Assembly: GCF_053078305.1 (NCBI RefSeq)
Contig: NZ_CP166879.1
Strand: one strand, 5' to 3'
Length of the DNA: 64,000 nt
Position numbers: made by a program. Below, in pieces: positions 39,001 through 42,000 of the stretch (the first letter of the stretch is position 1; every line of letters begins with the position of its first letter).

Positions 39001-42000
39001 CCCAAGAATTCTCTATTGCATTGTTTTTTAATGAAAAAATATTATTTCAACAATATCTCACGATAAATAACATTAGGATTTTGTTATTTAAACACGAGTC
39101 CTTTGCACTTGCTTACTTTATCGATAAATCCTACTTTTTTAATGCGATCCAATCATTTTAAGGAGTTTAAAATGGATAAGAAGCAAGTAACGGATTTAAG
39201 GTCGGAACTACTCGATTCACGTTTTGGTGCGAAGTCTATTTCCACTATCGCAGAATCAAAACGTTTTCCGCTGCACGAAATGCGCGACGATGTCGCATTT
39301 CAGATTATCAATGACGAATTATATCTTGATGGCAACGCTCGTCAGAACCTGGCCACTTTCTGCCAGACCTGGGACGACGAAAATGTCCACAAGTTGATGG
39401 ATTTATCCATTAACAAAAACTGGATCGACAAAGAAGAATATCCGCAATCCGCAGCCATCGACCTGCGTTGCGTAAATATGGTTGCCGATCTGTGGCATGC
39501 GCCTGCGCCGAAAAATGGTCAGGCCGTTGGCACCAACACCATTGGTTCTTCCGAGGCCTGTATGCTCGGCGGGATGGCGATGAAATGGCGTTGGCGCAAG
39601 CGTATGGAAGCTGCAGGCAAACCAACGGATAAACCAAACCTGGTGTGCGGCCCGGTGCAAATCTGCTGGCATAAATTCGCCCGCTACTGGGATGTGGAGC
39701 TGCGTGAGATCCCTATGCGCCCCGGTCAGTTGTTTATGGATCCGAAACGCATGATTGAAGCCTGCGACGAAAATACCATCGGCGTGGTGCCGACTTTCGG
39801 CGTGACCTACACCGGTAACTATGAGTTCCCGCAACCGCTGCACGATGCGCTGGATAAATTCCAGGCCGACACCGGTATCGACATCGACATGCACATCGAC
39901 GCCGCCAGTGGTGGCTTCCTGGCACCGTTCGTCGCCCCGGATATCGTCTGGGACTTCCGCCTGCCACGTGTGAAATCGATCAGTGCTTCAGGCCATAAAT
40001 TCGGTCTGGCTCCGCTGGGCTGCGGCTGGGTTATCTGGCGTGACGAAGAAGCGCTGCCGCAGGAACTGGTGTTCAACGTTGACTACCTGGGGGGTCAGAT
40101 TGGTACTTTCGCCATCAACTTCTCCCGCCCGGCGGGTCAGGTAATTGCACAGTACTATGAATTCCTGCGCCTCGGTCGTGAAGGCTACACCAAAGTACAG
40201 AACGCCTCTTACCAGGTTGCCGCTTATCTGGCGGATGAAATCGCCAAACTGGGGCCGTATGAGTTCATCTGTACCGGTCGCCCGGACGAAGGCATTCCGG
40301 CGGTTTGCTTCAAACTCAAAGATGGTGAAGATCCGGGATACACCCTGTACGACCTCTCTGAACGTCTGCGTCTGCGCGGCTGGCAGGTTCCGGCCTTCAC
40401 TCTCGGCGGTGAAGCCACCGACATCGTGGTGATGCGCATTATGTGTCGTCGCGGCTTCGAAATGGACTTTGCTGAACTGTTGCTGGAAGACTACAAAGCC
40501 TCCCTGAAATATCTCAGCGATCACCCGAAACTGCAGGGTATTGCCCAACAGAACAGCTTTAAACATACCTGATAACGTTTAACGGTAACGGTGTCCCGAA
40601 ACGAACCCGTTTCGGGACAATTTCCAAAGTCTGTTCACTGGCATTAGCAACGGAAAATATTGTTCTGAATACGCTTCAGAACAAAACAGGTGCGGTTCCG
40701 ACAGGAATACCGTTTTAGGGGGATAATATGGCTACATCAGTACAGACAGGTAAAGCTAAGCAGCTCACATTACTCGGCTTTTTTGCCATAACGGCATCGA
40801 TGGTAATGGCTGTTTATGAATACCCTACCTTCGCAACATCGGGCTTTTCATTAGTCTTCTTCCTGCTATTAGGCGGGATTTTATGGTTTATTCCCGTGGG
40901 ACTTTGTGCTGCGGAAATGGCCACCGTCGACGGCTGGGAAGAAGGTGGTGTCTTCGCCTGGGTATCAAATACTCTGGGGCCGAGATGGGGATTTGCAGCG
41001 ATCTCATTTGGCTATCTGCAAATCGCCATTGGTTTTATTCCGATGCTCTATTTCGTGTTAGGGGCACTCTCCTACATCCTGAAATGGCCAGCGCTGAATG
41101 AAGACCCCATTACCAAAACTATTGCAGCACTCATCATTCTTTGGGCGCTGGCATTAACGCAGTTTGGTGGCACGAAATACACGGCGCGAATTGCTAAAGT
41201 TGGCTTCTTCGCCGGCATCCTGTTACCTGCATTTATTTTGATTGCATTAGCGGCTATTTATCTGCACTCCGGTGCCCCCGTTGCTATCGAAATGGATTCG
41301 AAGACCTTCTTCCCTGACTTCTCTAAAGTGGGCACCCTGGTAGTATTTGTTGCCTTCATTTTGAGTTATATGGGCGTAGAAGCATCCGCAACCCACGTCA
41401 ATGAAATGAGCAACCCAGGGCGCGACTATCCACTGGCTATGTTACTGCTGATGGTGGCGGCAATCTGCTTAAGCTCTGTTGGTGGTTTGTCTATTGCGAT
41501 GGTCATTCCGGGTAATGAAATCAACCTCTCCGCAGGGGTAATGCAAACCTTTACCGTTCTGATGTCTCATGTGGCACCGGAAATTGAGTGGACGGTTCGC
41601 GTGATCTCCGCACTGCTGTTGCTGGGTGTTCTGGCGGAAATCGCCTCCTGGATTGTTGGTCCTTCTCGCGGGATGTATGTCACAGCGCAGAAAAACCTGC
41701 TGCCAGCGGCATTCGCTAAAATGAACAAAAATGGCGTACCGGTAACGCTGGTCATTTCGCAGCTGGTGATTACTTCTATCGCGTTGATCATCCTCACCAA
41801 TACCGGTGGCGGTAACAACATGTCCTTCCTGATCGCACTGGCGCTGACGGTGGTGATTTATCTGTGTGCTTATTTCATGCTGTTTATTGGCTACATTGTG
41901 TTGGTTCTTAAACATCCTGACTTAAAACGCACATTTAATATCCCTGGTGGTAAAGGGGTGAAACTGGTCGTGGCAATTGTCGGTCTGCTGACTTCAATTA

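What the first reader, a model, noticed from the sequence alone, without database searches (positions are those of the whole stretch)
40593..40618. Perfect 10-bp hairpin inside the gadB-gadC operon spacer
A strong stem-loop 21 bp after the gadB stop with only a weak U tract is compatible with partial termination or an RNA processing site that sets the gadB:gadC ratio.
Basis: inference. Interest (0 to 1): 0.3.

Follow-up and report, generated by a model that had tools for sequence, protein, structure and literature searches.

The report
gadB 3'-end hairpin before gadC
A strong, evolutionarily maintained RNA stem-loop just after the E. coli gadB gene marks a mapped end of a gadB-only message inside the gadBC operon, an ordinary way for bacteria to make more of the first gene's product than the second.

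Summary
The window holds the E. coli gadB-gadC spacer. The stem is 12 perfect pairs (40592-40603 with 40608-40619) around an AACC loop, about -20 kcal/mol, far beyond chance. Term-seq of MG1655 (Adams et al. 2021, supplementary file 1) lists a 3' end at 1570594(-), which is window 40623, the last U of the AUUU after the stem. It has about half the reads of the gadC terminator. The stem is under selection: E. albertii keeps it through three compensatory pair changes, while the U run decays within the genus. Most gadB-gadC spacers of other genera carry an unrelated strong hairpin about 18 nt after the gadB stop, and few of these have a U tract. My reading is a hairpin that defines and protects the 3' end of a gadB-only mRNA. 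It probably acts as an exonuclease barrier, with at most leaky intrinsic termination, and so raises gadB over gadC message. These data cannot separate termination from processing. This is a known kind of element with low novelty. I found no description of this hairpin in the papers I could read.

The parts
39172..40572 (+). gadB coding sequence (glutamate decarboxylase), stop TGA at 40570-40572
   Evidence: ORF list, translation starting MDKKQV, RefSeq annotation of identical DNA
40592..40619 (+). RNA stem-loop: 12 perfect pairs (40592-40603 / 40608-40619) with loop AACC. This is the element of the finding.
   Evidence: Sequence; folding z = -4.4; perfect-hairpin census against shuffles; compensatory changes in E. 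albertii
40620..40623 (+). Short tail AUUU. The mapped RNA 3' end is at 40623 (MG1655 1570594, minus strand).
   Evidence: Adams et al. 2021 supplementary file 1, M63 sheet. The 61-nt string in the table equals window 40573-40633 and its position 51 is 40623. Coordinates cross-checked on a K-12-like record.
40624..40727 (+). Remainder of the spacer, the gadC leader. It is more conserved than synonymous sites and holds three GGA motifs (40652-54, 40704-06, 40721-23), the last within the Shine-Dalgarno GGGGGA.
   Evidence: The 40620-40727 segment is 90.7% identical between E. coli and E. albertii, against 75% and 68% at third codon positions of gadB and gadC; alignment
40660..40684 (+). Second perfect hairpin of the spacer (10 bp, loop TACGC). 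There is no U tract on the sense strand. It looks terminator-like only on the minus strand.
   Evidence: No compensatory change, and partly eroded in E. albertii, E. whittamii and strain E69.
40728..42263 (+). gadC coding sequence (glutamate/GABA antiporter)
   Evidence: ORF list; annotation
42287..42317 (+). Canonical intrinsic terminator of the operon (11-bp stem followed by a run of U's). Term-seq 3' end at 42317 (MG1655 1568900).
   Evidence: hairpin; Term-seq, 70,553 reads

Best explanation
The stem-loop is an RNA element that defines and protects the 3' end of a gadB-only mRNA inside the gadBC operon. RNA polymerase starts at the gadB promoter. Most polymerases read through the spacer into gadC and stop at the canonical terminator at 42287-42317. 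Transcripts whose downstream part is lost are degraded 3'->5' only as far as the 12-bp GC-rich stem. The loss can come from endonucleolytic cleavage in the unstructured A/U-rich stretch after the hairpin or in gadC, or from the few polymerases that release at the weak AUUU tract. This leaves a stable species that ends at about 40623. The gadB segment therefore outlasts and outnumbers the gadC segment. That fits the need for much soluble hexameric decarboxylase and little membrane antiporter. Shown: the structure, its selection, and the 3' end. Inferred: the exonuclease-barrier role, the origin of the end, and the effect on the GadB:GadC ratio. Within this reading, I put processing or protection as the main selected function at about 0.5-0.55, and leaky intrinsic termination as the main source of the ends at about 0.3-0.35.
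For: - **3' end.** A Term-seq 3' end lies 4 nt after the stem, with about half the reads of the operon's terminal 3' end.
- **Stability.** The stem is far more stable than chance.
- **Compensation.** Three pairs change on both sides in E. albertii (U-A>C-G, and A-U>G-C twice), and the hairpin is only about 57% identical in sequence while its flanks are 86-91% identical.
- **U run not conserved.** It reads AAUUUCC in E. coli, AAUUCC in MOD1-EC7003, AAAUUCC in E69 and AAACUCC in E. albertii.
- **Other genera.** 46 of 55 gadB-gadC spacers of at least 60 nt have a significant local hairpin (median z = -3.6) that starts a median 18 nt after the gadB stop. Their sequences are unrelated. Only 7 of the 46 have at least 5 U in the next 8 nt, and 31 have 3 or fewer.
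- **Second clade.** A Providencia/Proteus hairpin family also shows compensatory pairs.
- **Placement.** A start about 20 nt after the stop puts the stem just outside a terminating ribosome (established knowledge; inference).
Against: - There are no half-life, nuclease-mutant or in vitro transcription data, so termination and processing cannot be told apart.
- The 3' end lies 5 nt past the last G-C pair. That is nearly the same as the 6 nt at the bona fide gadC terminator in the same data set, so it fits true termination equally well.
- The 3' end is listed in only one of three growth conditions. The operon's terminal 3' end is also listed only there.
- The covariation within Escherichia rests on a single lineage.
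- gadA has an analogous hairpin, but no Term-seq 3' end is listed there.
- The GadB:GadC consequence is untested.
Confidence: 0.55

Rival explanations
1. It is a leaky intrinsic (Rho-independent) terminator. A fixed fraction of polymerases releases at the AUUU tract after hairpin formation, and the mapped 3' end is the primary termination product, at most nibbled by a few nucleotides. The hairpin is selected for termination and protection is secondary.
For: GC-rich 12-bp stem with a tetraloop. The 3' end lies in the U run, 5 nt after the last G-C pair, against 6 nt at the canonical gadC terminator. Some other genera have fully canonical terminators at the same place: Yersinia rohdei L008, Serratia L012, Citrobacter L038, L055 and Comamonas L057. 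Read-through and terminated species coexist at roughly 2:1 in 3'-end reads.
Against: Only 3 U in the tail, and the terminator scan does not call it. The U run is not conserved within Escherichia while the stem is. 31 of 46 analogous hairpins elsewhere have 3 or fewer U in 8 nt.
Confidence: 0.3
2. Rho-dependent termination occurs in the 105-nt untranslated leader or in early gadC, and exonucleases then trim the RNA back to the hairpin.
For: Rho-terminated transcripts are known to be trimmed back to stable stems (Dar and Sorek 2018, PMC6061677, title and abstract level; own knowledge). The spacer is untranslated for about 105 nt after the hairpin.
Against: There is no C-rich, G-poor stretch. C/G is 0.7-1.0 across 40620-40760. 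No Rho region is listed here in Adams et al. supplementary file 2, but that experiment was done in LB at OD 0.5, where no gadBC 3' ends are listed.
Confidence: 0.07
3. The element works mainly on gadC translation. The hairpin organises the conserved leader, for example by placing the invariant UCC at 40623-40625 opposite the gadC Shine-Dalgarno sequence, or by framing CsrA-type GGA sites. The 3' end would then be a by-product.
For: The MFE of the spacer pairs AUUUCC (40620-25) with GGGGAU (40719-24). UCC is invariant in the genus. The leader is more conserved than synonymous sites. There are three GGA motifs in the leader (sequence).
Against: The pairing is only 6 pairs including two G-U, spans a long range, and is not predicted in two relatives, L001 and L002. 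There is no covariation to test it. Hairpins in other genera sit in unrelated leaders.
Confidence: 0.05
4. It is a DNA palindrome that serves as a protein operator, or it is a chance inverted repeat without function.
For: It is a perfect 12-bp inverted repeat with a 4-bp centre. Symmetric changes also preserve a DNA palindrome.
Against: The expected number of 12-bp perfect hairpins per window is 0.03. An RNA 3' end maps at its foot. The half-site sequence is not conserved, with three positions changed in E. albertii. Unrelated hairpins occupy the same place in other genera.
Confidence: 0.03

Closest known systems
Intercistronic stabiliser hairpins that give segmental mRNA stability in operons (malE-malF REP hairpins, Rhodobacter puf, E. 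coli papBA; own knowledge of the literature)
   Same: A stable stem-loop sits between two cistrons. The upstream, more needed product keeps a hairpin-protected 3' end. No U tract is required. Structure rather than sequence is conserved.
   Different: It is not a REP or BIME repeat: it is single copy per genome and bears no resemblance to the REP consensus. Differential stability of gadB against gadC has not been measured.
Operon-internal partial intrinsic terminators (attenuating terminators that tune stoichiometry, e.g. rpsU-dnaG-rpoD, rplL-rpoB; Rend-seq surveys; own knowledge)
   Same: GC-rich hairpin about 20 nt after the stop codon. A 3' end lies in the following U run. Read-through continues to a strong terminal terminator.
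   Different: The U tract has only three U's and is not conserved among close relatives. The simple terminator scan does not call it. Its efficiency is unknown.
Term-seq 3' ends with a hairpin but a poor U tract in E. coli (many 'primary' ends in Adams et al. 2021, e.g. talB, degP, erpA, panD)
   Same: The same anatomy and the same data set. The gadB end is labelled 'orphan' only because it lies 51 nt after the gene, beyond the 50-nt rule.
   Different: It lies inside an operon rather than at its end.
The hairpin downstream of the paralogue gadA
   Same: A 15-bp stem starts 19 nt after the gadA stop, followed by the weak tail GCUUAUUAAU, and gadX is the downstream gene.
   Different: Its sequence is unrelated. 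No Term-seq 3' end is listed at that site in any condition.

Membership tests
Intrinsic (Rho-independent) terminator | GC-rich stem of about 5-14 bp with a loop of 3-8 nt | tested here: met
   12 bp, 7 G-C pairs, loop of 4; -21 kcal/mol
Intrinsic (Rho-independent) terminator | U-rich tract directly after the stem (at least 5 U in 8 nt by the scan's rule) | tested here: not met
   The tail is AUUUCCAA, with 3 U in 8. The + strand scan does not call it. The U run decays in relatives.
Intrinsic (Rho-independent) terminator | RNA 3' end in vivo a few nt after the stem | tested here: met
   Term-seq 3' end at 40623, 4 nt after the stem
Intrinsic (Rho-independent) terminator | Factor-independent release by purified RNA polymerase | not testable with these tools
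   Needs in vitro transcription
Intercistronic mRNA stabiliser / 3' exonuclease barrier | Stable stem-loop between cistrons, conserved as structure rather than sequence | tested here: met
   Compensatory pairs in Escherichia and in Providencia/Proteus. Unrelated hairpins at the same place in 46 of 55 spacers.
Intercistronic mRNA stabiliser / 3' exonuclease barrier | A discrete upstream-only RNA species ending at the stem | tested here: met
   The Term-seq 3' end at 40623 coexists with the operon-terminal end
Intercistronic mRNA stabiliser / 3' exonuclease barrier | Longer half-life of the upstream segment, lost when the stem is disrupted or dependent on PNPase/RNase II | not testable with these tools
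   No decay or nuclease-mutant data were accessible
REP/BIME repeated extragenic palindromes | Multi-copy dispersed family with a REP consensus | tested here: not met
   The 181-nt query that includes the hairpin has a median of one place per genome in 5,407 genomes. No direct search with the hairpin alone or against the REP consensus was run.
Rho-dependent terminator | C-rich, G-poor rut region in untranslated RNA; sensitivity to bicyclomycin | tested here: inconclusive
   C/G is 0.7-1.0 after the hairpin, so there is no rut-like bias. The BCM data set was taken in a condition where no gadBC 3' ends are listed.
Curated RNA families (Rfam 15) | A match to any covariance model | tested here: not met
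   No hit at E <= 1 in the spacer. The only weak sub-threshold hits are at the gadC terminator.
RNase III processing site | About 20 bp or more of double-stranded RNA | tested here: not met
   The stem is 12 bp. The length requirement is from established knowledge.

The most novel reading that the evidence does not exclude
The two perfect hairpins and the unusually conserved leader between them and gadC could form a dedicated processing and translation-control module. In this reading, cleavage between hairpin 1 (3' protector of gadB) and hairpin 2 (5' protector of gadC) separates the operon mRNA into two independently stable and independently translated halves. gadC translation would be further gated by the UCC/Shine-Dalgarno pairing or by CsrA at the GGA motifs. 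Antiporter level could then be set post-transcriptionally, possibly in response to acid or growth phase, independently of the decarboxylase.
Probability: 0.1. Interest if true: 0.45.

Novelty: new member of a known kind. Interest (0 to 1): 0.2.

Why it matters
GadB and GadC form the main extreme-acid resistance system of E. coli, and they are needed in very different amounts: an abundant soluble hexamer and a scarce membrane antiporter. A selected hairpin that ends or protects a gadB-only message gives a simple post-transcriptional explanation for this uncoupling within one operon. It also matters for people who engineer gadBC for GABA production or who read operon-level transcriptomics. It does not change any general concept. 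Such hairpins are textbook elements, and the 3' end is already in a public table, though unnamed.

Tried and rejected
1. **Rfam.** A search of 38800-42700 at E <= 1 found nothing at the hairpin.
2. **Alternative pairing.** I tested whether the 8-mer CCCGAAAC at 40524 in gadB coding sequence, identical to the core of the 5' arm, could form an alternative (antiterminator-like) pairing. The 8-mer occurs 5 times in the window against 2 expected, and 4 of 100 shuffles reach that count. gadA shares the coding copy but not the hairpin. I rejected it as chance.
3. **Rho.** There is no C>G bias after the hairpin.
4. **Repeat element.** The sequence is single copy per genome.
5. **Literature.** Nine full-text searches and several papers gave no description of this hairpin or of a gadB-only transcript. 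The classic gad Northern-blot papers (J Bacteriol and Mol Microbiol, 1999-2006) are not held. My recollection that they show a 1.4-1.7 kb gadA/gadB band beside a gadBC band of about 3.1 kb is therefore unverified.
6. **Other 3'-end or interactome data sets.** Dar and Sorek 2018, Conway 2014 and Melamed 2016 have no supplements held. The SMRT-Cappable-seq supplements do not mention gadB or gadC. Ju 2019 and Thomason 2015 are not held.
7. **Metagenome scan.** I did not run a scan for more Escherichia variants, because it would not have changed the verdict.

Full report
**1. What is there**

The window around 40.6 kb is the E. coli gadB-gadC locus. Bases 40400-40900 are 100% identical to many E. 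coli chromosomes annotated gadB and gadC. The spacer is present in 5,407 of 5,426 complete genomes, once per genome. gadB ends with TGA at 40570-40572 and gadC starts at 40728, which leaves a 155-nt spacer.

It extends by one pair at each end to 12 perfect pairs (40592-40603 with 40608-40619) around an AACC loop. Folding gives -21.1 kcal/mol for 40585-40632, with z = -4.4 and 0 of 200 dinucleotide shuffles as stable. The hairpin is also kept in the MFE of the whole spacer (z = -4.05).

A census of perfect hairpins (stem of at least 10 bp, loop of 3-8) finds 6 in the 64-kb window, against 0.37 in shuffles (0.03 for 12 bp). Two of the six lie in this 155-nt spacer and one is the gadC terminator. 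The tail is AUUUCCAAAG, and the terminator scan does not call the site on the sense strand.

**2. Experimental evidence already public**

Supplementary file 1 of Adams et al. 2021 (eLife 10:e62438, PMC7815308) lists curated Term-seq 3' ends of MG1655. One entry is 1570594, minus strand, with 33,816.8 averaged reads and the class 'orphan'. Its surrounding sequence is TAACGTTTAACGGTAACGGTGTCCCGAAACGAACCCGTTTCGGGACAATTTCCAAAGTCTG.

That 61-nt string is identical to window 40573-40633. The coordinate corresponds to string position 51, which is window 40623, the last U of AUUU and 4 nt after the stem. I cross-checked this on a K-12-like record in which gadB ends at 1570645.

The entry is in the M63-glucose OD 0.4 sheet. 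The next entry in that sheet is the operon's terminal 3' end at 1568900 (window 42317), with 70,553 reads. Neither end is listed in the two LB sheets, so detection follows expression of the operon or the detection threshold. It does not point to condition-specific formation of the internal end.

The label 'orphan' only reflects the authors' rule that 'primary' ends lie within 50 bp of a gene end. This one lies at 51 nt.

**3. Is the stem selected?**

I aligned ten Escherichia spacers: E. coli lineages, two unnamed Escherichia species, E. whittamii, a divergent strain E69 and E. albertii. Substitutions concentrate in the loop (AACC, AAGC, CACC, AATC, CTCT).

- In E. albertii, three stem pairs changed on both sides and stayed paired (U-A to C-G, and A-U to G-C twice).
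- Over the 28-nt hairpin, E. coli and E. albertii are only about 57% identical. The flanks are 86% (upstream) and 90.7% (downstream) identical.
- The U run is not kept: AAUUUCC in E. coli, AAUUCC in MOD1-EC7003, AAAUUCC in E69 and AAACUCC in E. albertii.

The covariation rests on one lineage within the genus, so on its own it is suggestive rather than conclusive.

**4. The same architecture in other genera**

A scan of one genome per species with GadC returned 80 loci. In 66 of them gadB lies directly upstream. Of the 55 spacers of at least 60 nt:

- 46 have a local hairpin with z < -2 against dinucleotide shuffles (median z = -3.6; 38 of the 55 are beaten by none of 40 shuffles).
- The stems have 9-18 pairs, start a median 18 nt after the gadB stop, and are unrelated in sequence between genera.
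- Only 7 of the 46 are followed by at least 5 U in 8 nt. These include Yersinia rohdei, Serratia, a Citrobacter and Comamonas, which carry textbook terminators. 31 of the 46 have 3 or fewer U.

A Providencia/Proteus family of hairpins (GCCAAAGAAC...GUUCUUUGGC) also shows compensatory pairs. The 11 spacers below 60 nt have little room for such a stem and were not scored.

The paralogue gadA carries an unrelated 15-bp hairpin 19 nt after its stop, with the weak tail GCUUAUUAAU. No Term-seq end is listed at that site.

**5. Mechanism**

The shown facts are a selected RNA stem, a mapped 3' end at its foot, and coexistence with read-through transcripts. They fit two known mechanisms that are not exclusive.

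- **Protective or processing hairpin.** The conserved feature across Escherichia and across genera is the stem and not the U tract. I therefore judge the selected function to be protection of the gadB 3' end against 3'->5' exonucleases, after downstream cleavage or occasional release. This would make the gadB segment more abundant than gadC.
- **Leaky intrinsic terminator.** This remains a strong rival for E. coli itself. The end lies 5 nt past the last G-C pair, almost as at the canonical gadC terminator (6 nt) in the same data set. Some genera have true terminators at this position.
- **Rho.** This is less likely. There is no C>G bias downstream, but the available bicyclomycin data were taken in a condition where no gadBC 3' ends are listed.
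- **DNA operator or chance.** These are contradicted by the 3' end, by the lack of half-site conservation, and by the chance expectation of 0.03 per window.

The effect on GadB:GadC stoichiometry is an inference from the biology of the two proteins, not a result.

**6. Comparison with what is known**

The element works like intercistronic stabiliser hairpins and like operon-internal partial terminators.

- As an intrinsic terminator, it meets the stem and in vivo 3'-end criteria and fails the U-tract criterion.
- As a stabiliser, it meets the structural and species criteria, and the decisive half-life criterion could not be tested.
- It is not a REP element, because it is single copy.
- It matches no Rfam family.
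- It is too short for RNase III.

I found no paper describing it in the held library. The older gad Northern-blot literature is not held, and my memory of a gadA/gadB-sized band in those blots is unverified.

**7. Verdict**

The element is an ordinary member of a well-known class in a very well-studied operon. The modest new points are the compensatory evolution of the stem with decay of the U run, and the recurrence of an analogous hairpin, mostly without a U tract, after gadB in many Proteobacteria. Interest is low (0.2). The most novel reading that the evidence leaves open is a two-hairpin processing and translation-control module for gadC, which I put at about 10%.

Noticed in passing
window 40660-40684: A second perfect hairpin lies in the same spacer (10 bp, loop TACGC). 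It has no U tract on the sense strand. On the minus strand it is followed by TATTTTCC, and the scan calls it terminator-like there. It shows no compensatory changes and is partly eroded in E. albertii, E. whittamii and E69. No opposite-strand Term-seq end is listed nearby.
   Followed up: partly
window 40620-40727: The gadC leader after the hairpin is 90.7% identical between E. coli and E. albertii, against 75% and 68% identity at third codon positions of gadB and gadC. This implies constraint. It contains GGA motifs at 40652, 40704 and 40721, the last in the Shine-Dalgarno sequence. An invariant UCC (40623-25) pairs with the SD in the MFE structure.
   Followed up: partly
L086 6121-6163 (minus strand; E. 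coli K-12-like record NZ_CP026359.1, downstream of gadA): The paralogue gadA has an unrelated 15-bp hairpin (AACCGAAUGCCCAGC...GCUGGGCAUUCGGUU) 19 nt after its stop, with a weak U tract, ahead of gadX. No Term-seq 3' end is listed at that position in Adams et al. 2021.
   Followed up: partly
window 42287-42317: The canonical gadC terminator (11-bp stem followed by a run of U's) has its Term-seq 3' end at 42317. Two weak sub-threshold Rfam hits (Plastid-psbA-2, DapZ) fall on this hairpin and are chance.
   Followed up: yes
loci L007-L072 compared with window 39172-42263: In other Proteobacteria, GadC is 70-80% identical to E. coli GadC, but the adjacent GadB is only 56-61% identical to E. coli GadB. 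The two genes of the operon therefore show very different divergence from the Escherichia versions.
   Followed up: no
window 27025-27055, 55435-55462, 59011-59042: Three further perfect 12-bp hairpins lie in the window. The one at 55435 is followed by TTGTTTTTAT and looks like an intrinsic terminator. I did not examine the others.
   Followed up: no
window 40524-40531: The 8-mer CCCGAAAC of the hairpin's 5' arm recurs 64 nt upstream, inside the gadB coding sequence. I judged it to be chance: 5 copies in the window against 2 expected.
   Followed up: yes
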